From contig OX597819.1 of assembly GCA_951406725.2 (NCBI GenBank), forward strand, positions 115,072,001-115,136,000: a stretch of 64,000 nt of DNA, given 5' to 3'. Of the stretch, positions 1-57,195 are shown piece by piece. Each line of letters begins with the position of its first letter. Position 1 is the first letter of the stretch. This stretch comes from Octopus vulgaris. Lineage: Eukaryota. The translations under genes were made by a program, and so were the position numbers. Under the pieces are notes generated by a model that was not told where the DNA came from, did no database searches, and was given only the letters and a program-made list of their open reading frames with translations.

Positions 1-270
1 CACCTTAAGCAAGTGTCTTCTACTATAGCCTCGGGCTGACCAAAGCCTTGTGAGTGGATTTGGTAGACGGAAACTGAAAGAAGCCCATCGTATATATATA
101 TATGTTTCGGTCCCCCCAACATCGCTTGACAACCGTTCCCATCACTTAGCGGTTTGGCATGAGCGACCGATAGAATAAGTACTAGGCTTACAAAGAATAA
201 GTCCTGGGGTCGATTTGCTCGACTAAAGACGGTGCTCCAGCATGGCCACAGTCAAATGACAGAAAAGAAT
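1..270 (+). mobile_element. SINE family A, cut by the window edge
   Basis: CCTTGTGAGTGGATTTGGTAGACGGAAACTG core and CCAGCATGGCCACAGTCAAATGAC tail. Confidence 0.9.
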
Positions 271-479: not shown

Positions 480-2093
480 TTATTTTCTTGTATGAATTTG
501 TTTATGACGTATTAAATTTCTATTCCTAGAAAATGCTTCACCGCAAATTTCACACTGGTACGGTTTTTCGCCAGTGTGAATGCGTATATGGTATGATAAG
601 TGACTACTACTAGAAAAAGCTTTGTCACAAATTTCACATTGGTATGGCTTTTCTCCTGTGTGAATACGTGTATGCTCCGCTAAGTGATCCTTTCTATAAA
701 ACGTTTTGTCACAAATTTCACATTGGTATGGTTTTTCTCCTGTGTGAATACGCGTATGTTCCGATAAGTGACATTTTCTATGAAATGCTTTTTCACAAAA
801 CTCACACTGATATGGCTTTTCACCAGTATGAGTGCGTTTATGACGAGACAGATTTGACTTTCGAGAAAATGACTTCTCACATATTTCACAATGGTATGGC
901 TTCTCCCCTGTGTGACTCCATTTATGATCTGTTAATTTACTGTTACAGGAAAATTTTTTCCCACATATTTCACAATGGTAAAGATTTTCTCCTGTATGAA
1001 GACGTCTGTGGGCCGCCAAGTTACTGCTGTGAGAAAATACTTTTTCACATATTTCACAACGGTAAACTTTCTCACTGCGATTAAGCCCCTGATCTTTCAA
1101 CTGAACCTTTTGTAAAAACTCTTTTCCACAAATTTCACTATCACCTTGCCTTTCTACTGTATGAACAACTTTATGGAAAGTTAATCTACTCTTCAAAGAA
1201 AATGTTTTTCCACAAATTTCGCATGAATATGGCTCACTCCCTGTGTGAATAATTTTATGAAGTGATAATTGGCTCTGCAGAGAAAAGGTTTTCCCACAAA
1301 ATCCACAGTGGTACGGTGTTCTTCCACTGTGCCTATGCTTATGACTAGATAACTGTGTACTACTTGAAAATGCTTTTCCACAAATGTCACAATCGTATGG
1401 TTTTTCTCCTGTATGTATACGTTTATGATCTTTTAAATAACTTCCACACGAAAATGCCTTTCCACAAATTTTGCATTGGTATGGTTTTTCCCCAGTGTGA
1501 GTTCGTTTATGATAAGCTAAATGATTATTAAAAACAAATGTTTTTCCACAAATTCCACAGTGGTAGGGTTTTTCCCCTGTGTGAATACGTTTGTGATATG
1601 TTAATTTGTTATTACAAGAAAAAGCTTTACCACAAATTTCACAATTATAAGGTTTTTCCCCAGTGTGAATACGCACATGAATAGCTAATTTACTAACAAA
1701 AGAAAATCCTTTTCCACAGATTTGGCAGTGGTGTGGTAGTTCTCCCGTGTGAATGCGTTTGTGATATGATAACGCACTGTTACAAGAAAATGCCTTTCCG
1801 CAGATATCACAGTTGTGTGGTTTTTCCCCTGTGTGAATGCGTATATGACGTGACAAATTACTACTAAAAGAGAATGTTTTCCCACAGATTTCACAGCCAT
1901 AGGGTTTTTCTCCTGTATGAATACGTGTGTGATCGGTTAATGTACACTTTCGATAAAAGACTTTCCCACAGTATTCACAATGGTACACTTTTTTACCTTT
2001 CTGAGCGCACTTATGAGCATCAAAGTTACTCTTTATAGCAAACAGCTCCCCACAAACATCACATCTATATGGTTTCTCTTCCGGTTCAAACAT
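480..2093 (-). CDS. C2H2 zinc-finger protein, gene 1 (537 aa, about 19 fingers, no effector domain)
   Basis: Tandem CxxC-x12-HxxxH repeats with TGEKPY linkers. Splice acceptor TTTCAG at 2374-2369. Minus-strand AATAAA at 363-368. Confidence 0.95.
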   Translation of the reverse strand: MFEPEEKPYRCDVCGELFAIKSNFDAHKCAQKGKKVYHCEYCGKVFYRKCTLTDHTRIHTGEKPYGCEICGKTFSFSSNLSRHIRIHTGEKPHNCDICGKAFSCNSALSYHKRIHTGELPHHCQICGKGFSFVSKLAIHVRIHTGEKPYNCEICGKAFSCNNKLTYHKRIHTGEKPYHCGICGKTFVFNNHLAYHKRTHTGEKPYQCKICGKAFSCGSYLKDHKRIHTGEKPYDCDICGKAFSSSTQLSSHKHRHSGRTPYHCGFCGKTFSLQSQLSLHKIIHTGSEPYSCEICGKTFSLKSRLTFHKVVHTVERQGDSEICGKEFLQKVQLKDQGLNRSEKVYRCEICEKVFSHSSNLAAHRRLHTGENLYHCEICGKKFSCNSKLTDHKWSHTGEKPYHCEICEKSFSRKSNLSRHKRTHTGEKPYQCEFCEKAFHRKCHLSEHTRIHTGEKPYQCEICDKTFYRKDHLAEHTRIHTGEKPYQCEICDKAFSSSSHLSYHIRIHTGEKPYQCEICGEAFSRNRNLIRHKQIHTRK

Positions 2094-2682
2094 TGTCAGA
2101 TTAATAGAACTTTATAACAATGATGTCTCTATTCAGGTGATGTAGAACATTCAAAAAAATGTTTCACTGGTCAACTGTTCATTTCCATTAACGTAACATA
2201 AACTTCACGCTAATATCAGATATATTATAACTGTCCACAGTAGATATGTTTGTCTTACATTGCACTATCCTCAGACAACTTTAATAAACACCACACACTG
2301 GTTATTTCAGCAAACACAACTGAATGATGGCATTATCAGGTAGAGTTCCACAGTCTGACACAAATGTTCTGAAATTAAAGAAAACCATTATTAGCATGTA
2401 ACTTCATATGATGCAACATTGAAAGTGGCATTATATTTATGTATCTGTGAGGTATGATGATGTATTAGATTTGCAATGCTCACTTAAAAAGTAGATTTCA
2501 CTTAGGAAGAAATTTTAAAATACTGACTTGGCAGTTAAAAGACTATAAAAGAACAATGCCAGTTCTATTAACGAATTAGTGAAACAGAAGTTTAGGATAG
2601 ATATATCTGTTTTAGATATTCAATTTAAATATAATTTATTATGCCTTACTTTTAAATATAGTGGCATAAAAAAGACACATTA

Positions 2683-3908
2683 CAGGGTGTTCAAGCTAAA
2701 TTTGGCAATTTTTTGTGTTTCCTTTTTTCAAGAACAGCTTGAAACTAAAGTTGTGGTTGAGAAAAAAGTTAGCTGACATGAAAGGTTGGGAGCTATCTGA
2801 ATATCGGAAAAGGGATACTCGTATCCTGATGATTCACACTGTCAACATGATGACTGATGCTCAATGCTCTGTGAGCACTGTAAAGACTGCAGATATGACA
2901 CGAACAACTGCAATGGAGACTACAAAGCCATGGCCAGCAGAATAGGACACAGCAGGCGTTCTGACTGTGTCAAAATATTGGAATTCATACAACAGCAGGA
3001 GGACAAGGTGATGGAAGATCTGAACAAGGGAATCCAGGCTTTAGTGAGAGAGATGGGTGTTGGAATTGTCACCATGAAGTTGGTACTGAATAAGGATCTT
3101 TGCTGCCACACATATAAGGGGTGCAAGGGGCAAATTCTGATAACCAATGCCAAGAAACTCTTGAATAAGCTGTGGAATCCTGCTGAGCTGGGGATGATCT
3201 GGTTCTTCTCAGATAAAAAAAACTTCAACCAGGACCAGTTGCAAAACATCCAGAACAACAGGTACCTTGCTTACAATTCAAGTGATGTCACACATATGAA
3301 AGCCAAGTTTCCCCAAAACTGTGATGGTTTTTGGGTGTGTCTCCAGTGAGGGTGACATCATACTACCCCACATCTTTGAACAGGGCCTTAGGCTTAATTC
3401 AGACAGCTATATGAAGTTGATGGAGACTGTGATCAAAATCTGGCTGCAGAAGGCCATATGTGTGGCAATAGGATTTGGCTCCACGGCATGCTTTCAGAAA
3501 GAGTCTGAAGTGGTTGAGAGAGAATTTCTATAATTTCACCAGCCCCAATTCCTGACCTCCTAATTCCCCTGATTATAATCCTAGGGATTACTATCTATGG
3601 AGCATGGTTCATAAAAACACTAACTGCTCTGCCTGAAACACCAAGGCTGAGCTGGTAGCTAAAAATCAAGGTATACTAAAAATCAAGGTAATCAAAGATT
3701 ATCTCAGAGACAGAGGAATGCATGCACTAGGTTCCAGAGCCATCATGAGGCAGTGGTGGAAGCTGAGGATGGCTACTTTGAGTAAAATGTTATCCCCCAG
3801 TCATGATCGAGTTGATATTTTTTTATATTTCTTAAATACTTTTATTTTTGGATAGGATATAGTGTTTTCTTTACATTTTATGCGAACAAATTTAGCCAAA
3901 ACACCCTG
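2683..3908 (+). mobile_element. Decayed Tc1/mariner-superfamily transposon (maT/DD37D-like)
   Basis: TA-flanked TIRs CAGGGTGTTcaaGCTAAATTTG / CAAATTTAGCcaaAACACCCTG. Broken ORF with motifs IWFFSDKKNF, VMVFGCVSSEG, WQ*DLAP.H and PNSPDYNP.DY. Confidence 0.85.
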
Positions 3909-3941
3909 TACATAATGTATATATATGCATGCATGTGTGTC

Positions 3942-5240
3942 AGTTAGTGATTCTGCAAAGGAGGCTAGGAAGTGCTACTATGAAAGGCTGCTGAATGTAG
4001 AGAATGCAAGGGAGAAGGAGAGCCTTCCTAATGTGGACCCAACAGAGGGGCTGGCTATTCAAATCGACAGTAGCTTAGTAGATAAAGCAATTAAGCATAT
4101 GAAGACAGGGAAAGCATCCAGCACATCAGGAATCAACACTGGGATGCTTGAAATATCTGGCAAGCGGCATATAACCTGGTCACCCGTATAGTTAATCAGG
4201 TTGTCCACAAGGGAGTCATACCCAATGACTGGTGTAGCAGCATTATAGTCAACTGCTACAAAAGCAAAAATAATGCCCTAGACAAAAAAATAATTACAGA
4301 GGCATTAAATTGTTGCACCAGGTAATGGAAAATGGAGAAAGGGTCATAGCTCAATTAATTATAGAGTTAGCATAGATGAGATGCAGTTTGGATTTGCGCC
4401 AGGGAGAAGCACCACTGATGCTATCTTTGTGCTGAGACAACTGCAAGAGAAGTACTTGGCCAAAAATAAACCTCTGTATCTGGCTTTTGTTGACATGGAG
4501 AAAATCTTTGACAGGATCCCTTTCTCCCTTATCTGGTGGGCAATATGGAAGCTAGGGATAGATGAATGGTTAGTGAGAGAAGACAAAACCATGTACAAGG
4601 ATGCTGTTAGTAAGGTGAGAGTCACCAATAAGTATAGCAAGTGTACAAGTAGGAGTCCACTTGAGTTCGGTTCTTAGCCCCCTCTTATTTATGATGGTCC
4701 TCCAAGCTATAATTGAGGAATTTAAGACCTCCTGCTCTTGGGAGCTCCTCTATGCTGATGACCTTGCTCCTATTGCTGAATCACTACCACAATTAGAGAA
4801 GAAATTTCACATATGGAAACACGGACTAGAGTTAATTTAGCAAAAACCAAAATATTGATAAGTAGATCCCTTCAGAGAAATGGCTCTGCTCAATATGTAA
4901 AAAAGGTGTCTGGAGACACTCCATAAGGTGTATCCAGTGCAAGCCATGGATAGATAAGAGGTGCAGCAGTAACAGTGGAAGACTAACAGAGAAAGTAGTC
5001 TTTATATGTGGTAGATGTACAGGTATGGTAAATATCAGGAATGTACAAGAAATAGACTCCCCCAAATATTAGGGGAGATCCTTAGAAGTAGTAGACAGTG
5101 TCGGTTACTAAGGTGATCAAGTTAGTAGTGGGAGAGGTTGTTCAGAAAGCATAGCTGCTAGAATAAGAATAGGCTGGGCGAAATTCAGAGAATTACTCCC
5201 TCGTAGTAACAAAGAGCCTCTCTTTCAGAGTGAAAGGCAA
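3942..5240 (+). mobile_element. RTE-clade LINE ORF2 fragment (reverse transcriptase), frameshifted
   Basis: QFGFAPGRSTTDAIF..RQLQEKY...LAFVD and LLYADDL motifs. Its 3' part is homologous to 34944-35270. Confidence 0.9.
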
Positions 5241-5831
5241 GTGAATTGACCCCAGTACATACTGTTTTTAAAGCCTGGTATTTATTTTATTGGAATCTTT
5301 TGCTGAACTGCCAAGTTGTGGGGGTGTAAACAAGCCAACACCAGTTGCCAAGCAGTGGTGGGGGAATGAAAACAAAGACACATACACATATATATGACAA
5401 GCTTTTTTTCAATTTCTGTGTACCAAATCCACTCAAAAGGATTTGGTCAGCCCAGGGTTACAGTAGCCTTCTCCACAGTGGGCAGAACCTAGAGCCATCT
5501 GGTTACAAAACAAAATTCTTACCACAAATCCACTTATATACACACACATGAAGCTGGTGCCATGTCAAAAGCAACTACACTCAGTACATTCTGTAAGGTG
5601 GTTCATGTTAGGAAGGGCATCCAGCTGTAGAAACTGCACCAAACCAGACAGTAGAGCTTGGCACTGTCTTCTGGCCTACCAGCACCTGTCAGTCCATGTG
5701 AGCACAAAAAACTGACATTAAATGAGGATAATGATATGTGTGTGCCTGTGTGTATATCACTAATCACCTTCCCATTCATGCCTTCAGTTTTCTCTCACTC
5801 CTTTGCCACACTTCATCATAACACCTATCAT

Positions 5832-6250
5832 CTCAAGCATTTGTCTTATGAAGAAAGGCTGAAGACGCTCAACCTTTATTCTCTAGAAAAACAATGACGC
5901 CGTGATGATCTCATTCTTGCTCACAACATCATAAGCGGAAAGTGTAACCTCTTGAAAGAGCTGTTCTTCACTCCTGCTCCAGAGCGTCGGCTGCGGGGTA
6001 ACTCCGAAAAGCTCTATCTGCGACGATTTCATCTCAATCGAAGGAGAGGGGCTTTCTCCGTCCGGGTTGCAGATCCGTGGAATAAGCTACCAGACGAGAT
6101 GGTGAAGATGCCGACGACCGCTCGGTTCAAAGTCTCTCTTGACCAGAAATGGCCTGAACTCTTTGCATGAACACCCTCCCTGTACATAACTCCATGTCCC
6201 CCTACATGGCCTTGCTTTTTGCTTTTTGAGCCAAAAAATTAACTTAACAT
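5832..6250 (+). mobile_element. CR1-type LINE 3' end
   Basis: LKHLSYEERLKTLNLYSLEK, FSVRVADPWNKLP and FKVSLD, typical of a CR1-group ORF2 C-terminus. Confidence 0.8.
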
Positions 6251-7331
6251 ATCTGCCATCATTCTCAGCACCCTCTCATGTGCCATCACGCCCCACTCAC
6301 AATAGCCACCATCTCCTTCATCTTGTATATCATTCCCCAATATTCTGACCGACTCCTATCTTTCTCATCTTAACCCCTCTCTATACTGGTTTTTCCCAAT
6401 CAAATACACACCCACGGATACACTTCTGTTTACTCACTCACTCTACCCCATTTCTAACCATCTATCAGTGTCTCCTCACTTACCAAACTACCCGAGCCTT
6501 CTTCCTGATCTACTGTCCATGTCCTCTCTTATGTTTACCTTCTAGTATCGTGAGAGTTTGTTCTGACACCCCATCACAACCATCTTATCTTCTACCCAGC
6601 TATTTTCATCTACCCTTATATAATGCAAAGTAGCTAAGTATTTTCTCTGTTGCAAGACAATTTGCGCTTGTTTATCAAACTTCAGCCTTTCAACACCTGA
6701 CAAAGCCATCTCCCCAACTCAAATACTTCCCTTCCATTAAGTGGAAGGGACATATTTTTTTTCATTTTCCTCTTATTAGCGACCTCACTATGCCAGTGGC
6801 ACACACACTAAAAAAAAACGCACCTCGTACACCCTGCAAAGTGGCTGGCATCCAACCATAGCTGACACTGGGGCTCAATGTACCCTGCAGTTCGCAGGGT
6901 CCTATCAAACCGTGCAACCTATGAAAAACATATGTTAAACTATTACACACGTGTTTTATCATGCAAAAGCTTAGGTGCATCACTATCTTAAAAGTTTGAG
7001 CGAAACACTGGCAGCTTCACCTACTAGAAACAACAGCCAAAATTTCAACAAATTACTCTTTACAATCTCATAAAAAAGAATATCATTCGACAATGTCGAC
7101 CTACAACAGAAGACAGGGTGGGCACGGATGGAACATATTTGATCATAAGTTTGCTGGATCAATTTGATCTGTGGGTCGACAGGGATGACACAACAACTAG
7201 CTCAACAGTAAATATTATCTTTCATTTTCTCCATTCAATACACAAGGATGACCGAAATAATTGTTAACAGATGAAAACTACCAACATTAACTTGCAATAT
7301 AAACTTCCATGTCAAACGAAAGCTATCTTAC

Positions 7332-7491
7332 CTCTTCATATTGTTTACTTTCTCTTCAATCCCGCGAATGCAGTCTTCCTTTGTACATGCCCTCTCTAAA
7401 TATACAAAAGGCATAGTAATCGCTATAGACTCATTTAAATCAACAAATACAACAAAGAAACAGCGAAATATGGCTGACCGGATGTAGAGAC
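7332..7491 (-). promoter_or_regulatory. Putative promoter and first exon of ZNF gene 1
   Basis: Donor GAAGAG|GTAAGA at 7331. ETS-like ACCGGATGT at 7477-7485 lies in a block (ATGGCTGAnCGGAnGT..AGAC) shared with 52071-52092. Confidence 0.6.
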
Positions 7492-7819: not shown

Positions 7820-10160
7820 ATTACGGTTATTACTTTAAATTGGGCCACAAAAGAAAAAAAAGTGTAATAGGTATAGAACAGCGTGTATTAAAGTAATAGG
7901 AAAACAAAAATTTGCGCCAACGAACGGAGGTGTGGGTAGAGGACTTTCGGGAAATTCACACGATCCGACTTTTTCTCTCATAATTTTTAGAAAAATGGAT
8001 ATCTTTCGATGAAATTTTACATAAATACCTTTAAAATCGCATAGATTACGATTATAAAGAAATTTGTGGGGAAAAATCTTTCCGAGTGGGTGGGAAGGAC
8101 TTTCAAAGAGAAAGAAATTATATTTTAGTTTGAGTGTTATAATAATAATAAAACATTGTGTACAGTGCTCAGGTGCACAACAACTCATCTAAAGTGTATG
8201 TATAGTACATAGGGTAATGCACAAGCGTCAGGAAAAGAACAGTGCATGGGGAAAAGTTTTGAAAAACATTTTAAGATTAATCATTTTTGACTTGAGCAGT
8301 AGCTAAACGTTTTAAAAAAGATCCCATGAATTAAGGTGAGAGAAACAAATTCATAAATACAGTGTTGAATATGGTTTTACTATGGGAAGAAAGTTAAGGG
8401 CGATTTAGCTGTAGTTTTTAGTACATCTCACGACCTTTTGATACCTTCCGTGTGTTTAATATTTTCTCCAAATAAAACATATTTGAGTAATGGAAACAAG
8501 ATGTGGCAAAACTGCAGATGAGTACCCCACGACTTTGTTGCCTCATAACTTCCAACAAAAAAAAAAAAAAACATTTACACCCTTGAGTTAGTTTGAGTGC
8601 GCTCAAATTGCGATGAATAGCCAATAGCTAGCTAGTCGTAAGTAGTCGATCCTACAACAACTACCTAGCAAAGTAAATAAAACACAAAATAAATAATTTT
8701 TTTTTCACAAAGTAAATAATTTTTTTTAAACAAAGTAAATAAAACAGTAAATCATTTTTTTTTAAACAAAGTAAATAAAACAAAAACACAAAGTAAGGAT
8801 CGACTAGTCATGACTAGCTAGCGCGGAGCACCGGGGTCACACGTGTTCATTTTCGAAGACTTACTCCTAAAGCATGGCGCGTTGCGACTCTTGCGAAGTC
8901 GCTTTAAATGGCGGTATTTGGAGTTTCTACAAGAATGACGAAGCATCTATTGCGTTTTTAACTGAACACGGCGTCCTGCCACTTACTCGGAATTGTCCGA
9001 CCTGCAATACCCCATGTACTTTGCGCAAAGGGACAAACATGTGGCGCTGTCGTAAGATGGTGCGACGACGTCGGCAGGCTAAAAGAGAATGCGGATACTC
9101 CATATCTACATTTAAGAACACTTTTCTGGAACAGCTCCGTCTACCGCCTTCGCAGTTTTTGGCTTTTGTGAACCACTTCCTCCAACCATCCTGGTCAATC
9201 AATTCGGTAATGGAAAACCTTGAACTCACCCGTAAAACCTCCAGAGATTGGTTATCTCTGTGTGCAGAGGTCTGCCAGTATTGGGCAGAAAACCAACAAA
9301 ATGTGATAGGAGGACCGGGACTTGAAGTTGAGGTTGACGAAACGGTTCTGGTCCGTCGGAAATACCAACGCGGCAGGATTGTGAAAACGGTTTGGCTTTT
9401 TGGCGGACTGGAACGGTTGACCAAAAAAGCATTTGTGGTTCCACTGTCAACTGAATGTGACGAGGGCGACAAACGGGATGTTAAGACTCTCATTCAACTC
9501 ATAACCCGCTACATCAGACAGGGATCAATAATCTATAGCGACTGTCGGCGTACCTACAGTAACCTAGACAACCTGGGCTATACGCACTATCAGATTAACC
9601 ACAGTGATCCCCTTAACACATCAAATGACACGCACAATATTGAGCAGTTATGGAAAAGCCTCAAGAAGTGCATTATTCGACCCGGAATGAGGCTTGCCAA
9701 TCTGAAGCAGTACGCCGCTCGGATGCTTTTCCTGAGAGCCGTCTCACCGCCAACCCACTCACTTCATAATTTTCTTTTGGAGGCTGCAAGATTATACAAA
9801 GTTTCTGATGACCCGGAAGACTGTATACCTGTTCCTGATGTCGGTCACCAATAACTCCTTAACGGCGCATTTTTTTTTATACTGTAAAACATTCCAACGG
9901 TGGAGATATGCTAAAAACAACAGCTAAATTACCCTTAGTGAAACCATATCCAACACCGTATTTATGAATTTGTTTCTCTCACCATGATACATGGGATCTT
10001 ATTTTAAAAACTTTTTTCTATTACTCAAAATAAATGAATCAAAATTTTTTCCAAACTTTTTTTCCATTACACTCAAGTAAAAAAAAATAATGAATTTTTT
10101 TTCTCCTCGAAAGTCCTCTCTCCACCCGCTCGGAAAAAAATTTTCCCTACATATTTCTTT
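7820..10160 (+). mobile_element. Merlin (IS1595-like) DNA transposon with long decayed inverted repeats
   Basis: About 8057-8430 is the diverged reverse complement of about 9893-10160. The left arm is interrupted by a retroposon tail (about 8139-8248) and the right arm is truncated. Both arms match the foldback at 38358-39262. Confidence 0.8.
8874..9854 (+). CDS. Merlin/ISXO2-like (IS1595-family) DDE transposase, intact 326-aa ORF
   Basis: N-terminal Zn-ribbon CPTC..WRC. Motifs VEVDET..RRKYQRGR..WLFGGLER, IYSDC and NHS..HNIEQLWKSLK give an intact D-D-E. Start context aagcATGG. Confidence 0.9.
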   Translation: MARCDSCEVALNGGIWSFYKNDEASIAFLTEHGVLPLTRNCPTCNTPCTLRKGTNMWRCRKMVRRRRQAKRECGYSISTFKNTFLEQLRLPPSQFLAFVNHFLQPSWSINSVMENLELTRKTSRDWLSLCAEVCQYWAENQQNVIGGPGLEVEVDETVLVRRKYQRGRIVKTVWLFGGLERLTKKAFVVPLSTECDEGDKRDVKTLIQLITRYIRQGSIIYSDCRRTYSNLDNLGYTHYQINHSDPLNTSNDTHNIEQLWKSLKKCIIRPGMRLANLKQYAARMLFLRAVSPPTHSLHNFLLEAARLYKVSDDPEDCIPVPDVGHQ

Positions 10161-19021: not shown

Positions 19022-20108
19022 GGGAAACCTATTATAGAACACTACATTAATATGAAATTTTCTACAAATATACCTCGGACGATATAGATTCCATATTTGT
19101 ATTTGGTTTGCAAGAATCTTTATATGAATTGGTGTGTTGAAGCATATCTTGTTACATCTGGAAAGAGTAATTCTGTTTTAATACTTTGTTAATTAACACT
19201 CACCTGTTCGATTTCCGCTTATTTACTCATTTATTAATTTACCTTCTAAAATATTCGTTGCTTCTTGCAACCTCTTCAGTACTTGTTGACTGTGTCCATT
19301 ATTGGAGCCGTTTCTTTTTGTTTCTTAGTTGGCATGTATGTGTATGCGTCAGCTTGCATGAGTATACACGAATGTATATATGTATTTATGTTTATACACT
19401 CTTCTTGAATAGTACCGTAGGTAGAGTATGGAGGTCTGGCATTCTGCAGCCCACCAGGGTTGGGCACGTATGAATCCTAGAGGGCAGTTCAGTACCCATG
19501 AAGAGAAATGGGTGTTTTAATCTGTTAGCGGAAAGACTGCAGATGAGCAACAATGCTTCTTCATCATTAACTCTGATCACTTCATAAACAGCCTATTTCA
19601 TTTTTGGCAACTTTGCTCTGCGAAATTCTGGATGGCACCAGCTCACTACTCTGGTCATGTTATGACCACTATATTTTTGTTTTGGCTAGCTCCATTCCTA
19701 TTAGGTTCTAACGACTTCCAACTCAATCTACTTGGACAGTAAATGTATGACAGTGGTAGTGATATAAAATCTGCAATGTTGAATTACTATATTGTTCAAT
19801 TACCGGTTTTATCTTACTGCTTCTTTTCCTATTTCAGAATATCACAACATGTTGATGTGAAAGAAATCTCTCCATTCAGAAGTGTCTTTGATATTCTCAT
19901 CACCTAAATGAAGACTGTATATTTGTAAGGAGCATTCATGAATAAGTCAACCTCTGTATATAAATACAGTCTATAACAAAGAACAGCGAAATATTTTTTC
20001 TTTCTCTGGAATGTATGGAAGAAACATTGCATTAAATTATTCTCTGAATATAGAGACACAAGTGAACAGAAATGTATTCATAGAAATGAAAAACACATTA
20101 TCAATGTG

Positions 20109-21104
20109 ATGTGTATGATAAATAATTCTCTCATAATGAATAATTTAATTAAACCAGAAAACCCCGATACAGAGAAAAAGGCATATCACTGTAATATCTG
20201 TGGTAAATCATTCCTTCAGTATTGTTGCTTTACTTATCACCAATGGATTCACGCAGGAGGGAACGGACAGCAGTGTGATATCTGTGATAAATCATTTTCT
20301 AACAGTAGTGACGTTGCTAGACACACACATACACATACAGGAGAGAAGCCATATCATTGTGATATCTGTGGTAAATCATTTCTTCAGTATTGTTGCTTTA
20401 CTTATCACCAATGGATTCACACAGGTGGGGACGGACAGCAGTGCGATATCTGTGATAAATCATTTTCTAACAGTAGTGACGTTGCTAGACGTACACATAC
20501 AGGAGAGAAGCCATATCATTGTGATATCTGTGGTAAATCATTTTCTTACAGTAGTGAAGTTGCTAGACACACACGTACACATACTAGAGAGACGCCATAT
20601 CATTGTGATGTCTGTGGTAAATCATTTCCTTACAGTAGTAGCGTTGCTAGACACAAACGTACACATACAGGGGAGAAGCCATATCATTGTGATGTCTGTG
20701 GTAAATCATTCTCTCAAAGCAGTATCTTGACTAATCACAAAGCTACACACACAGGAGAGAAACCTCATCATTGTGGTATCTGTGGTAAATCATTCTCTCG
20801 TAATAGTGAATTGGTTACTCACAGTCGCATTCATACAGGAGAGAAACCTTATCATTGTCGCGACTGTGGTAAATCATTCTCTTGTAATAGTCATTTGGTT
20901 GCTCACAATCGCATTCATACTGGTGAGAGACCATATCATTGTGATATTTGTGGTAAATCATTCTATCAAAAAAGTCACTTGACTAGTCACAAACCTATCC
21001 ATACAGGAGTGAAACCTTATCATTGTGAGATCTGTGGTAAAACATTTTCTCAAAAGCGTCAGTTGAATAGACACACAAATATACATACAAGAGAGGAACC
21101 ATAA
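20109..21104 (+). CDS. C2H2 zinc-finger protein, gene 2 (about 11 fingers)
   Basis: Tandem fingers with TGEKPY linkers. First ATG at 20109 (the ORF track starts at GTG 20106). Acceptor TTTCAG ends at 19837; AATAAA at 21463. Confidence 0.92.
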   Translation: MCMINNSLIMNNLIKPENPDTEKKAYHCNICGKSFLQYCCFTYHQWIHAGGNGQQCDICDKSFSNSSDVARHTHTHTGEKPYHCDICGKSFLQYCCFTYHQWIHTGGDGQQCDICDKSFSNSSDVARRTHTGEKPYHCDICGKSFSYSSEVARHTRTHTRETPYHCDVCGKSFPYSSSVARHKRTHTGEKPYHCDVCGKSFSQSSILTNHKATHTGEKPHHCGICGKSFSRNSELVTHSRIHTGEKPYHCRDCGKSFSCNSHLVAHNRIHTGERPYHCDICGKSFYQKSHLTSHKPIHTGVKPYHCEICGKTFSQKRQLNRHTNIHTREEP

Positions 21105-33506: not shown

Positions 33507-34943
33507 AATGCCTTAATAGACAATATATTCTACTATTTTCCATAAAAACATCTACAATAAAATGAAAACCTGTTTTCAACCATCACAAAGAAATGCATTT
33601 TCTTTCACTGAATCAGTTGAAATCAAATTTAAAATATTATCACAGTAATATATTCTACTGATCTGATATGTTGTCATGAAGTGGTCTGTTTCAATTGCGA
33701 TATATTTGTGAGAAAATGACTTTTTACTAACGTCAGTCTAGTCACAACTTATTAAAGAAAACATATCTCATATTACATTGTTACCATTAGATTAGCTGAT
33801 AAATGTCACGTTATGAATTATGATATCATCAGGAAGAAATCCATTCTTCAACATGGTTAGTCTGAAATGAAAGAAAACAAATCATAGTTTATGACTCATG
33901 ATACATTGTTGATGTTTTTCAACACAAGATCAACCCTCTGTCCCTTTAGCTGAAACTACCCAGTCTTACTGTGTTTTTTTTCTTCTTAAATCCAGAATTG
34001 CATTATCTGTGTCTTTCCTGAAATTTGTGGTTTGAGAGAGATTTATCTGCTATTTCTAGCAAGGTAAATAATTACATAGAGGATCCTTTGTTAGCTCATC
34101 ATAAGCTATATAATTAGAAATGGTAATATACATAAAATATGAAAACAACCATCTCTTTTATTATATTTAGTTTTGCTTCAATGATGATCAACAAAACTCT
34201 TTTTCCAATCCTTCTTCTTTAGAACTTCGACTCTCTGGGATTCCCACCCTGTACATATCTTCCCTCAAGTTGTTGACTTGCAACAGTTAAACAGTACATT
34301 AATCACATGAATCTTAGTGGTCTCGAAAAAGGCCTTTGACAAAACCCCTTCCTCCAAACGTTAACAGAAAAATTTAATTCAATGCAGACAAAACATTAGC
34401 AAAAGGAACCACTTCAATGAAGATTCTTTCACAAGAATTCAATATCTTCTCTCTTTGGCACATAACTATTCCAATAATTTTGGGCTATAATTTCCACATA
34501 TGACCCTATTGTTCAATGTGACAGTTGCACTTATGAAACTATCAACAGGATGTTTATACAGTGGAATAACAGTATTTTAAAATAAAATTTTCTGCAAATA
34601 GGTTTCCAATGCAGTAGATTACGATTATGTAGGAATTTACTGTGGAAAAAGCTACGAAGGCAGATATTTCACGCATCCCCACCTCAATTACAATCGGATT
34701 GGGGGAAAGTTTCTTGGAAAAAACCCCAAAAAACTTACCTGTCAGCTACATTTCAAACAACTATGATGGCCAAATTTTATTCCCCCAAAATGATGGAATA
34801 CTTGTAATGTAACGGTTTCAAACAGATGAGGAGAGAATCAGAAGTTATTCATTTTGCTCCAGTTACCAATTTTACAGCACCCACCACTTATCAGAGATGA
34901 ATTAGCATTGGCCAGAAAAAATGTCAATTTTTAAAAAGAATAT

Positions 34944-36547
34944 TCACTCTATAAGATGCACCAAATGTAAGCTATGGACACATAAGAGATGTAGTAATGT
35001 CAAAGGAAGACTAACTAGGAAAATAGTTTTTATCTGTGGCAGATGCTCAGGAGCAATAAACTCTGAAAATATGCAGAGACCAACTTCTATTACGTTTCAG
35101 GGAGAAAAACTAGAAGTAGTTGATAGCTTCCGCTACCTAGGTGACCAAGTCAGTAGTGGGGGCGGGTGTGCTGAAAGTATAACTGCTAGAGTAAGAATAG
35201 CCTGGGCAAAGTTTAGAGAGCTCTTACCCCTACTGGTGACAAAAGGCCTCTCGCTCAAAGTAAAAGGCAGACTGTATGATGCATGTGTACGTACAGCCAT
35301 GCTACATGGTAGTGAAACTTGGGCTGTGACTGCTGAGGATTTACGTAAGCTCGCAAGAAATGAAGCTAGTATGCTCTGTTGGATGTGTAATGTCAGTGTT
35401 CATAGTCGACAGAGTGTAAGTACTTTGAGAGAAAAGTTGGACCTAAGAGGCATCAGATGTGTGCAAGAGAGACGATTGCGCTGGTATGGTCATGTGGCGA
35501 GAATGGACGAAGATAGGTGTGTGAAAAAGTGCCACACCCTGGCAGTTGAGGGGACCTGTGGAAGAGGTAGACCCAGGAAAACCTGGGTCGAGGTGGTGAA
35601 GCACGACCTTCGAACTCTAGGTCTCACCAAGGAAATGACCAGAGACCAAGACCTCTGGAAGTATGCTGTGCGTGAGAAGACCCGGCAAGACCAGTGAGAA
35701 CAATCAAAATCAAATCATATATCCGTGTCCGCTGCCAGCCTCGTCTGGTACCCGTGTCGGTGATACGTAAAAGCACCATTCGCTCGTGGCCGTTTGCCAG
35801 CTCTGTCTGGCCCCCGTGTCGGTGGCACGTAAAAGCGCCATCCGTACGTGTTTGTTGCCAGCCTCGGCTGGCCCCCGTGCCGGTGACACGTAAAAGCACC
35901 GTCCGTTCATGGCTGTTTGCCAGCTCTGTCTGGCCCCGTGTCGGTGGCACGTAAAAGCACCATCCGCTCGTGTTCGCTGCCAGCCTCGGCTGGCCCCCGT
36001 GCCGGTGACACGTAAAAGCACCATCCGTTCGTGGCCGTTTGCCAGCTCTGTCTGGCCCCGTGTCGGTGGCAATAAAAGCACCATCCGTTCGTGTCCGTTG
36101 CCAGCCTCGGCTGGCCCCCGTGCCGGTGACACGTAAAAGCACCGTCCGTTCGTGGCCGTTTGCCAGCTCTCTCTGGCCCCGTGTCGGTGGCACGTAAAAG
36201 CTCCATCCGTTCGTGTTCGTTGCCAGCCTCGGCTGGCCCCCGTGCCGGTGACACGTAAAAGCACCATCCGTTCGTGACCGTTTGCCAGCTCTGTCTGGCC
36301 CCGTGCCGGTGACACGTAAAAGCACCATCCGTTCGTGGCCGTTGTGCCAGCTCTGTCTGGCACCTGTGCAGGTGGCACGTAAAAAACACCCACTACACTC
36401 GCGGAGTGGTTGGCGTTAGGAAGGGCATCCAGCTGTAGAAACACTGACAAATCTGACTGGGCCTGATGAAGCCTTCCGGCTTCACAGACCCCAGTTAAAC
36501 CGTCCAACCCATGCTAGCATGGAAAACGGACGCTAAATGATGATGAT
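34944..36547 (+). mobile_element. 5'-truncated RTE LINE with open ORF2 C-terminus and 3' UTR
   Basis: CTKC..WTHKRC..CGRC, FRYLG, MLHGSETW, RLRWYGHV and RGRPRKTW motifs. Tail CCCATGCTAGCATGGAAAACGGACGCTAAA(TGA)n. Confidence 0.92.
35720..36385 (+). repeat. GC-rich minisatellite, 11 x about 60-61 bp in alternating A/B variants, within the RTE 3' UTR
   Basis: Units end CACGTAAAAGCACC. GCCAGCCTCGGCTGGC and GCCAGCTCTGTCTGGC variants alternate. Confidence 0.95.
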
Positions 36548-37085: not shown

Positions 37086-37959
37086 TAATAAATAAAACAT
37101 TTTCACAACGACGTAATTGTAATCTACACCCCTGAAACGTTTTTGTGGAAAATTTCATTAAAATATATATCCATTTTTCATTAAAATATATATCCATTTT
37201 ACAAGGAAACAAAGTCAGGAGTGAGGCACGCTTGTGTAGTTATGCCCAATAAAATCAAGAGCAATTCAAGTACTGAAGTCCATGTAAGCAACTGTACCCT
37301 CCCCTAAAATGTGCGATCTTGTTGGTAAACATCAACAATAAACAAAACTGCAATCTATTTTTGCACAGTTGAATATCCCTTCAACCTTTTAATTAATACA
37401 TTACACAACTAAAACCAAAATTCAAAGGCGGCGTGTTGTGGTAGTAACTGGATGTAAAGATCAAATTCACAGATAATGTTAGAATTGAACCAATTTTCAA
37501 ACTTTACTAATTTTACAGAAACATTTTTGGGGACTTCTGACAGTTTATGTTTCTTGGAAATGACAGAGAGTCGTCATCGCTGTCATGTTTTACCAATGGG
37601 ATAATGAGGAAACCTCAAAGGGTCGGTCAACCTACTAGAAATCTCCCTTGAATCACGCCTTACCTTTTTCATAAAGATATTAAATAATTTAGTTCCACAC
37701 TTTTAAAATAGAGATGGTCCTGGTTGGAACGCTTTTGATCATATGACAACTCGATCGTGTTGGCTTGGATGTAATCAGCCGAGTAAAACTGTACTGAGAG
37801 AAATGATTTGACGAAGTAGCCACTAGCCGGTTGCTCAACCTAACACCTTAATTCCTTCAGTTCACTCCCTATTTTCAGTAAAGAAAGGCATATTGGATAA
37901 TGTGATTCTACATACCTCTAAAAAAAAAAAAAGACGTGATGGTCACGGTCGAATCGGAT

Positions 37960-48934: not shown

Positions 48935-49444
48935 CAACAGATGTTCATAAGAGGAAACACAAGCAGTAAATGCCTAGATCTTTCTTTTCTAGGAACACAT
49001 TTATACAAAACTATTTAATCCTCTTAATTTGGATCTTTTTACTAAATTTCATAATGGAATTGACTAAAGCATATTTTAAAAAATGTCCTCTAAATAACAT
49101 AACTTAAGAACCTGATAAATGCCACATGCTTGAATTAAACATCTTTTAGTAAAAGTCCACTTTTCAAGATACCAGGCCTGAAATAAAAGAAAAGAAAATT
49201 TAAGTGTGTGCTTGAAAATACATGTAATAAATAATGTGTTTGGTGCTTACTTCAAAATAAAGCAAAAGAATGGACTAAAATAGTGCATAACTATAAGTTC
49301 TGCTCAATAATTAACTAGCTTTGTTATAGAAATTAACTGCTTAATTTATTAGGAACATTTTCTATTCATATAACCGGTAAAGACTTTGATAATAGTTTTA
49401 GAGACAGCTAAGATTTTGGTGCTAATTCATTTAGAGTACTCTTT

Positions 49445-54662: not shown

Positions 54663-54896
54663 AAGGGAAGTCACTCTTCATTCATATTTTCCTAAGTGTA
54701 ACCACTAGAGGCGCCACTTTATATTTATCATTGCTCATGCATGCACATGTTGTATACAGACACACGAATCAGTAGGTTGTATGGAATATCCTAAATGTCT
54801 TAATTCAACTTTACGGTGTGGTGACGAATATATTGATTTGGTTGTTTGACTTTTTACAGTGTTGAATGAAGAGTAAGAAAACGTTGTTCTGATAAG
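54663..54896 (+). promoter_or_regulatory. Putative promoter and first exon of ZNF gene 5
   Basis: AAGGGAAGTCACTCTTCATT..ACTAGAGGCGCCAC block duplicated at 63524-63582. Candidate donors at 54873 (A|GTAAGA) and 54897 (AAG|GTAATT). Confidence 0.65.
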
Positions 54897-56660: not shown

Positions 56661-57195
56661 TCAGCTTCTAAGCCCTATGAAACAATGCATCACCATCATC
56701 ATTATAAATTTCCCTAGTAGTATAACTTAGACTGGAGTGTATTACATCATACTGTTGTGTTGCTTGATCACATAATATCTCAGCTGTGTAGTCCTAATTC
56801 CTGTGATGTGTTTACATTGGTCTTCTTCCAGAACATCACTTGTACAAGTAAATTATCACTTTTAGAGCTTTTTGTTGGGCAGGAACTAATATTTGTTTTC
56901 TTCCATTTCAGGTTATACTTTAATGTTGGACAGTTTTGCGCCAGAGGACTTTGTAATTTTACAATGCTGGTGAAAATAATCAGAATGTGATATTTATCAG
57001 TGTAAATGACAACAACATAACAATGTTGTTTACCAATCAAATTATTAAAATAAGAGTAACCACGATTACACCTTGAAAGAACACAACATATTACAATTAA
57101 GTCATCGAAGACGTTTTTTGCTTTCTGTTGAAAATATGTTCATATTTCGACGATAATACACTGTAATTTTCTGAAAGTGTGTCAGATTTCTCAAA

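What the first reader, a model, noticed from the sequence alone, without database searches (positions are those of the whole stretch)
2302..7339. Candidate conserved spliced uORF/micropeptide in the leader of the ZNF paralogs
Seen: joining the gene 1 donor (7332) to its acceptor (2368) gives ATG AAG AG|A ACA... = MKRTFVSDCGTLPDNAIIQLCLLK*, which stops about 210 nt before the ZNF ATG. The same phase-2 frame at the start of exon 2 reads LTMLKNGFLPDDIIIHNVTFIS* in gene 3 (33860-33792). It aligns ungapped as G-x-L-P-D-x-x-I-I with synonymous CTA/CTT and ATC/ATA changes. Gene 4 reads PGILKSGLLLKDV*FKHVAFIR, and gene 2 has a 22-codon frame ending ATC ACC TAA (gene 3 ends ATC AGC TAA), although its peptide is dissimilar. 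Gene 5 reads MLDSFAPEDFVILQCW* (56923-56973), extendable to MKSYTL.. through the phase-1 donor at 54873. The rest of the leaders is less obviously alignable by eye. Inference: the cluster may carry a family-wide uORF for translational control, a second cistron, or a vestige of a lost N-terminal domain; an exon-start RNA element is an alternative.
Basis: partly seen in the sequence, partly recalled or inferred. Interest (0 to 1): 0.75.

Follow-up and report, generated by a model that had tools for sequence, protein, structure and literature searches.

The report
Shared, uORF-littered zinc-finger gene leader
The short reading frame spliced into the front of this octopus zinc-finger mRNA is there, but it is most likely one of about ten unconstrained upstream frames in an untranslated leader that the whole gene family inherited by duplication, not a conserved micropeptide.

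Summary
The gene 1 junction (7332→2368) is real: assembled contigs of 4 of 4 runs join it, and the 24-codon frame reads as stated (49 codons from an earlier in-frame ATG). The family-wide claim fails. Transcript-supported junctions show that gene 3's first exon has no ATG and a stop just before the junction (its 20-codon uORF is unspliced), and that gene 4's frame has no start. Gene 5's proposed donor is not the one its paralogs conserve, and gene 2 belongs to another subfamily. In 146 paralog leaders the whole 5' leader is homologous and diverges like four-fold degenerate finger sites (0.39-0.42 vs 0.39). Only 7 of 39 indels keep the frame, synonymous excess is not significant (z 1.4; fingers 5.6), and 4 of 47 predicted first exons give an in-frame ATG. 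ATGs sit at neutral density, with 10-12 per leader. A related 'dead leader' note on shark ZNFs exists in this scan; decayed fingers were tested here and not found. Ordinary; low interest.

The parts
   Evidence: contig pieces; ATG list
2369..7331 (-). gene 1 intron 1 (GT..AG, 4963 nt)
   Evidence: joint 2368/7332 in 4 of 4 runs
2302..2368 (-). exon-2 part of the gene 1 spliced uORF (24 codons from 7339, 49 from 7414); also the C-terminus of public hypothetical protein P0001
2094..2368 (-). gene 1 exon-2 leader, homologous to paralog leaders over its length; 6 further uATGs
480..2093 (-). gene 1 C2H2 zinc-finger ORF (17 fingers, no effector domain in Pfam)
   Evidence: contig X9 record 24
33792..33854 (-). 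gene 3 unspliced 20-codon uORF, first ATG of the mRNA; exon 2 starts at 33861
   Evidence: contigs X2 record 22 and X9 record 28
49135..49177 (-). gene 4 exon-2 start: homologous frame, no start codon, stop after 13 codons
54720..54896 (+). gene 5 predicted exon 1, ending at the paralog-conserved donor (inferred, not RNA-tested)
56923..56973 (+). gene 5 unspliced 16-codon uORF; exon 2 starts at 56912 (predicted)
19838..19907 (+). gene 2 predicted exon-2 start; C29-type leader, the frame homologous to gene 3's stops after 3 codons

Best explanation
This is the ordinary 5' leader of a two-exon octopus C2H2 zinc-finger gene, copied with each gene duplication and most likely drifting neutrally, in which the spliced 24/49-codon frame of gene 1 is one of about ten upstream frames that likely dampen translation without a conserved peptide. 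Shown: short first exon, GT-AG intron, and a second exon with 240-900 nt of leader plus the finger array (RNA-supported for genes 1, 3, 4; predicted for the rest); leader homology across chromosomes; neutral-rate divergence; 10, 12 and 10 uATGs in genes 1, 3, 4. Inferred: scanning ribosomes initiate at some uATGs (7414, 7339 and gene 3's 33854 have A at -3), and the ZNF is made by leaky scanning or re-initiation, so output is low; peptide similarity between paralogs follows from DNA similarity in a frame that happened to lack stops.
For: Leader p-distance 0.386/0.42/0.407 vs 0.391 at four-fold finger sites, 56 representatives; C6-type core 0.514 vs 0.491; intron 0.046 vs exon start 0.043 in 29 pairs, p 0.54. 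48 independent pairs: 7 of 39 indels are multiples of 3 in +1..+61 (downstream 14 of 54, 17 of 65); dN/dS 0.71/0.65/0.79 in the three frames, downstream 0.71-0.97, fingers 0.41-0.49. Synonymous excess z 1.40 (48 pairs), 1.31 (25 deep pairs), 0.12 (6 C6-type pairs) vs finger controls 5.59, 4.07, 2.00. In-frame ATG in 4 of 47 predicted C28-type first exons; 35 of 47 open another frame. 9 of 22 distinct acceptor-to-motif lengths keep the frame. 23 of 25 C27-type copies on C27 listed stop within 7 codons. ATG count 404 vs 403.6 expected. uORF coding regions are generally neutral and uORFs are enriched in transcription-factor genes (PMC7889888, passages).
Against: 8 of 12 alignable C6-type genes have an ATG opening the core frame. 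The frame is open for 15 or more codons in 35 of 56 set-B representatives vs 19 and 8 in the other frames. The C6-type test has low power (finger control only z 2.0). Four-fold finger sites may be homogenised between repeats and so understate the neutral rate. No ribosome data were available.
Confidence: 0.68

Rival explanations
1. The frame is the decayed remnant of an ancestral coding segment (an acidic/hydrophobic N-terminal domain or uORF) that was under selection early in the expansion and is now leader.
For: Weak signal in deep comparisons in both subfamilies and in the same frame, continuing past the usual stop (block after the AAGACTAAAG motif p 0.029 and 0.042), and absent between recent duplicates; several copies read Q in place of the stop and stay open 44-52 codons.
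Against: An off-frame control block scores p 0.015 and the in-frame block before the motif p 0.78 (4 of 12 tests under 0.05); windows, anchors and 10 of 16 C6-type rows were chosen by eye; no longer protein carries the segment (weak negatives); the frame runs into the fingers in only 10 of 56; not a decayed finger.
Confidence: 0.17
2. In the older chromosome-6 subfamily the frame is a living, translated uORF or micropeptide (pattern M-L-K-x-G-F-L-P-D/E-D-I) under weak selection, regulating its ZNF in cis or acting in trans.
For: 8 of 12 genes have an ATG in the core frame, from two different sources (exon 1 at -8, exon 2 at +4..+11); second codon positions are most conserved (0.45/0.58/0.43), as in the finger control (0.52/0.59/0.42); gene 3's is the first ATG of the mRNA; precedent MZF1-uPEP (PMC6993229, abstract).
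Against: Lengths 11-49 codons with non-homologous stops; frameshift in L002; no start in gene 4, g7, g8, L003; 26% amino-acid identity; no synonymous excess (0.252 vs 0.239 expected); the -8 ATG lies in a donor-like GTATGT motif in paralogs; one database protein only, from this species' own annotation.
Confidence: 0.1
3. The exon start is a conserved RNA element (splicing enhancer or structure).
For: Spacing downstream of the AAGACTAAAG motif is 25 nt in most set-B leaders while the upstream part varies from 27 to 79 nt.
Against: No consensus pairs on 11 C6-type leaders; divergence equals neutral sites and the adjacent intron.
Confidence: 0.05

Closest known systems
Canonical non-conserved uORFs in transcription-factor 5' UTRs (Zhang et al. 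2021, PMC7889888; passages read)
   Same: ATG-initiated upstream frames whose coding part evolves near neutrally; enriched in transcription-factor genes
   Different: Here the leader is shared by well over a hundred paralogs, and uATGs show no depletion at all (404 vs 404)
Cephalopod C2H2 zinc-finger expansion (Holzinger et al. 2025, PMC12513265; first seventh of the text and passages read)
   Same: The genes are members of this clustered, finger-only expansion
   Different: That paper's main text holds no 'UTR', 'uORF' or 'N-terminal'; the shared two-exon leader is not described there; its supplements were not opened
KRAB-ZNF and FiNZ-ZNF genes (Wells et al. 2023, PMC10547256; passages read)
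   Same: Tandem ZNF family with an upstream exon and one finger exon
   Different: There the upstream exon encodes a conserved domain fused in frame to the fingers; here stops separate the frame from the fingers and it is not conserved
MZF1-uPEP (PMC6993229; abstract read)
   Same: About 20-residue peptide from the uORF of a C2H2 ZNF mRNA
   Different: Single human gene with reported translation and function; no sequence relation tested or implied; translation here is unshown

Membership tests
Conserved-peptide uORF / micropeptide | Lies in the mature mRNA upstream of the main ORF | tested here: met
   genes 1, 3, 4 junctions in contigs
Conserved-peptide uORF / micropeptide | Start codon conserved across homologs | tested here: not met
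   4 of 47 C28-type; 8 of 12 C6-type but from different positions
Conserved-peptide uORF / micropeptide | Frame and stop preserved (indels in threes) | tested here: not met
   7 of 39 indels; 9 of 22 lengths; non-homologous stops
Conserved-peptide uORF / micropeptide | Synonymous excess / dN/dS below background | tested here: inconclusive
   not significant in pair tests; weak residue in deep comparisons
Conserved-peptide uORF / micropeptide | Conserved in orthologs of other species | not testable with these tools
   no relative genomes held; organism B contig keeps the junction but its letters in the frame were not listed
Conserved-peptide uORF / micropeptide | Translated (ribosome footprints or peptide) | not testable with these tools
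   no Ribo-seq or proteomics
Effector-domain ZNF (KRAB/FiNZ/ZAD type) | Upstream domain fused in frame to the finger array | tested here: not met
   stop 209 nt before the ZNF ATG on a continuous exon; no longer protein with the segment; no Pfam match
Decayed zinc fingers turned into leader | Leader matches the finger repeat at DNA or protein level | tested here: not met
   68 leaders score like shuffles against finger profiles
Structured cis-regulatory RNA | Consensus structure with covariation | tested here: not met
   0 pairs on 11 C6-type leaders; set B was not folded

The most novel reading that the evidence does not exclude
The start of exon 2 is the remnant of the missing effector module of cephalopod zinc-finger proteins, an acidic/hydrophobic peptide once fused to the fingers like KRAB or FiNZ, which was uncoupled into a uORF, is still translated and selected in the old chromosome-6 subfamily, and has decayed in the young clusters.
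Probability: 0.12. Interest if true: 0.65.

Novelty: new member of a known kind. Interest (0 to 1): 0.22.

Why it matters
As best explained it matters little: it documents a shared two-exon architecture and a uATG-rich leader in the octopus ZNF expansion, which predicts low translational output and warns that peptide-like motifs in paralog leaders arise from DNA homology alone. If the weak coding residue is real, it would point to how finger-only cephalopod ZNFs lost or uncoupled an effector domain, an open question for their proposed role in transposon silencing and brain gene regulation.

Tried and rejected
Whole-genome DNA and pattern searches for more C6-type leaders found none beyond those held (these searches skip common words, so absence is not shown). 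Pfam on four candidate peptide pieces: no family. Protein database: one hit at 22-72 aa, this species' own hypothetical protein; none among longer proteins for P0001 29-70 or for the set-B peptide alignment; all weak negatives. Atlas look-alikes were at chance level. Decayed-finger origin rejected. RNA structure rejected for the C6-type set. My own guesses of donors at 37663 (gene 3) and 51791 (gene 4), each with a nearby ATG, were overturned by contigs. No listed run is on record as RNA: their type is a guess, supported by GT-AG joints. The full profile search of protein representatives was not obtained, so distant fused homologs remain less well excluded. Literature: 7 searches listed no paper on uORFs or leaders of cephalopod ZNF genes; subscription papers and supplements were not seen.
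Full report
Setting. The window is G000:C6:115072001-115136000 of a 2.8-Gb genome; a protein encoded by it is labelled Octopus vulgaris by its source. It holds five finger-only C2H2 genes, part of a nine-gene group within the 464 kb examined. Other clusters lie mainly on C27-C29.

Checking the observation. Contigs of 4 of 4 runs (4 studies, 2 organisms; RNA status is the tool's guess) join 7332 to 2368 across a GT-AG intron, and exon 2 is continuous into the fingers. The 24-codon frame and its stop at 2302 are as written; an in-frame ATG at 7414 extends it to 49 codons, and the mRNA has 10 uATGs before the ZNF start at 2093. A public 70-aa hypothetical protein ends in the same peptide, but its first exon lies antisense in an ISXO2-like transposon. 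For gene 3 one contig joins 37916 to 33861 and a second covers exon 2 and continues; for gene 4 two contigs join 52161 to 49177 (tables were cut, so other runs are unknown). Gene 3's exon 1 has no ATG and a stop just before the junction; its uORF starts inside exon 2 and is the first of 12 uATGs. Gene 4's frame has no start, stops after 13 codons, and the mRNA has 10 uATGs. Gene 2 is a C29-type copy. The gene 1/gene 3 motif has 7 differences in 27 nt, 2 synonymous, against a neutral share near 24%, and the two stops are not homologous.

The family. From about 1.6 Mb of fetched DNA I found 169 finger ORFs. A DNA profile placed acceptors for 131; 36 had no hit, many cut by locus ends. I added 12 C6-type and six C7/C8 leaders by hand and dropped four C6 genes that would not align, leaving 146. 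Nearly all share an acceptor 240-900 nt upstream of the first finger, and the leader aligns over at least 130 nt across C7, C8, C10, C20, C21, C24 and C27-C30. Only three acceptors are RNA-supported; the rest are predictions.

Is the leader constrained? Among 56 representatives the p-distance is 0.386 (+1..22), 0.42 (+23..60) and 0.407 (+61..100), against 0.391 at four-fold finger sites and 0.653 for shuffles. In 29 pairs chosen on intron sequence, intron and exon start diverge alike (0.046 vs 0.043, p 0.54). No consensus structure forms on 11 C6-type leaders. The similarity is therefore what descent predicts.

Is the frame constrained? In 48 independent pairs 7 of 39 indels in +1..+61 are multiples of three (downstream 14 of 54 and 17 of 65), and dN/dS is 0.71, 0.65 and 0.79 in the three frames, like downstream windows (0.71-0.97) and unlike fingers (0.41-0.49). 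With base-matched permutation the synonymous excess is z 1.40, 1.31 and 0.12 for all, deep and C6-type pairs; finger controls give 5.59, 4.07 and 2.00. Nine of 22 distinct acceptor-to-motif lengths keep the frame (26 of 47 sequences, clade-driven). 23 of 25 C27-type copies on C27 listed stop within 7 codons. ATG occurs 404 times in 68 exon-2 leaders against 403.6 expected.

Results against this reading. In 10 C6-type genes a 12-codon core is more protein-like than neutral simulations at equal DNA identity: p 0.003 for the window, 0.012-0.020 for best of three frames, 0.064-0.094 for best of all windows, and 0.039 with a null that resamples real columns. The set-B exon start gives p 0.018, 0.006 and 0.015 in the same frame, and the block beyond the usual stop 0.029 and 0.042. 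But an off-frame block gives 0.015 and the in-frame block before the stop 0.78 (4 of 12 tests under 0.05), anchors and rows were chosen by eye, and all-pairs synonymous share is at expectation. Eight of 12 C6-type genes have an ATG in the core frame, giving 11-49 codons, with a frameshift in L002; gene 4, g7, g8 and L003 have none (first exons outside the window are predicted). I read this as chance or an old, decayed coding segment, and cannot exclude weak present selection in the C6 subfamily, where power is low.

Origin tests. The leaders do not match finger profiles better than shuffles, so they are not dead fingers as noted for a shark family (e1-9226234, unchecked AI note). No longer database protein carries the segment (weak negatives), and Pfam finds nothing.

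How it works. Shown: exon-intron layout, multiple uATGs, neutral-like divergence. Inferred from general knowledge of scanning: ribosomes start at some uATGs and reach the ZNF by leaky scanning or re-initiation, keeping protein output low; the peptides are by-products. This fits the finding that uORF coding regions are overall neutral and that uORFs are enriched in transcription-factor genes (PMC7889888, passages).

Comparison and novelty. The genes belong to the known cephalopod C2H2 expansion (PMC12513265, first part and passages), whose main text does not treat UTRs or uORFs. KRAB- and FiNZ-ZNFs have the same two-exon plan but a conserved domain fused in frame (PMC10547256, passages); that test is not met here. 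MZF1-uPEP is a precedent for a functional ZNF uORF peptide (PMC6993229, abstract). Seven searches listed no paper on cephalopod ZNF leaders; supplements were not opened. Verdict: a real but ordinary uORF-rich leader; family-wide micropeptide not supported; interest 0.22.

Noticed in passing
window 8335-9983: ISXO2-like (IS1595 family) DNA transposon with a 327-aa open frame (8871-9851, PF12762 E 3e-9) and inverted repeats at about 8335-8360 and 9958-9983; the public model P0001 splices an antisense exon of it (8946-8864) into gene 1 exon 1 near 7395. That joint was not among those listed.
   Followed up: partly
window 7485, 52086, 38033; C6 paralogs L002, L003 and C6:108.02-108.07 Mb: An ACTTCCGG(T)CAGCCAT-type motif sits at the start of exon 1 in C6-type genes (ETS/YY1-like, recalled); in gene 4 it lies 75 nt inside the RNA-supported intron, hinting at a second start site.
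   Followed up: partly
window 54702, 63563 and paralog at +82403: CCACTAGAGGCGCC motif upstream of gene 5-type first exons (CTCF-like, recalled).
   Followed up: no
C28/C29 loci L074-L105: CGCATGCGC palindrome about 150 nt upstream of the predicted donor (NRF1-like, recalled), and an 11-codon phase-1 spliced uORF in 35 of 47 genes; probably shared by recent duplication.
   Followed up: partly
set-B leaders, +27..+105 of exon 2: Spacing after the AAGACTAAAG motif is 25 nt in most leaders while the stretch before it varies from 27 to 79 nt.
   Followed up: partly
window 7339; L002, L116 exon-1 ends: The ATG 8 nt before the donor lies in a GTATGT donor-like motif in paralogs, so it may be a by-product of tandem donors.
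   Followed up: partly
window 19838-21101: Gene 2 is a C29-type ZNF set among older C6-type genes, suggesting a recent move between chromosomes.
   Followed up: no
window 35724-36384: GC-rich tandem array of a 61-nt unit, about 10.6 copies, in gene 3's intron.
   Followed up: no
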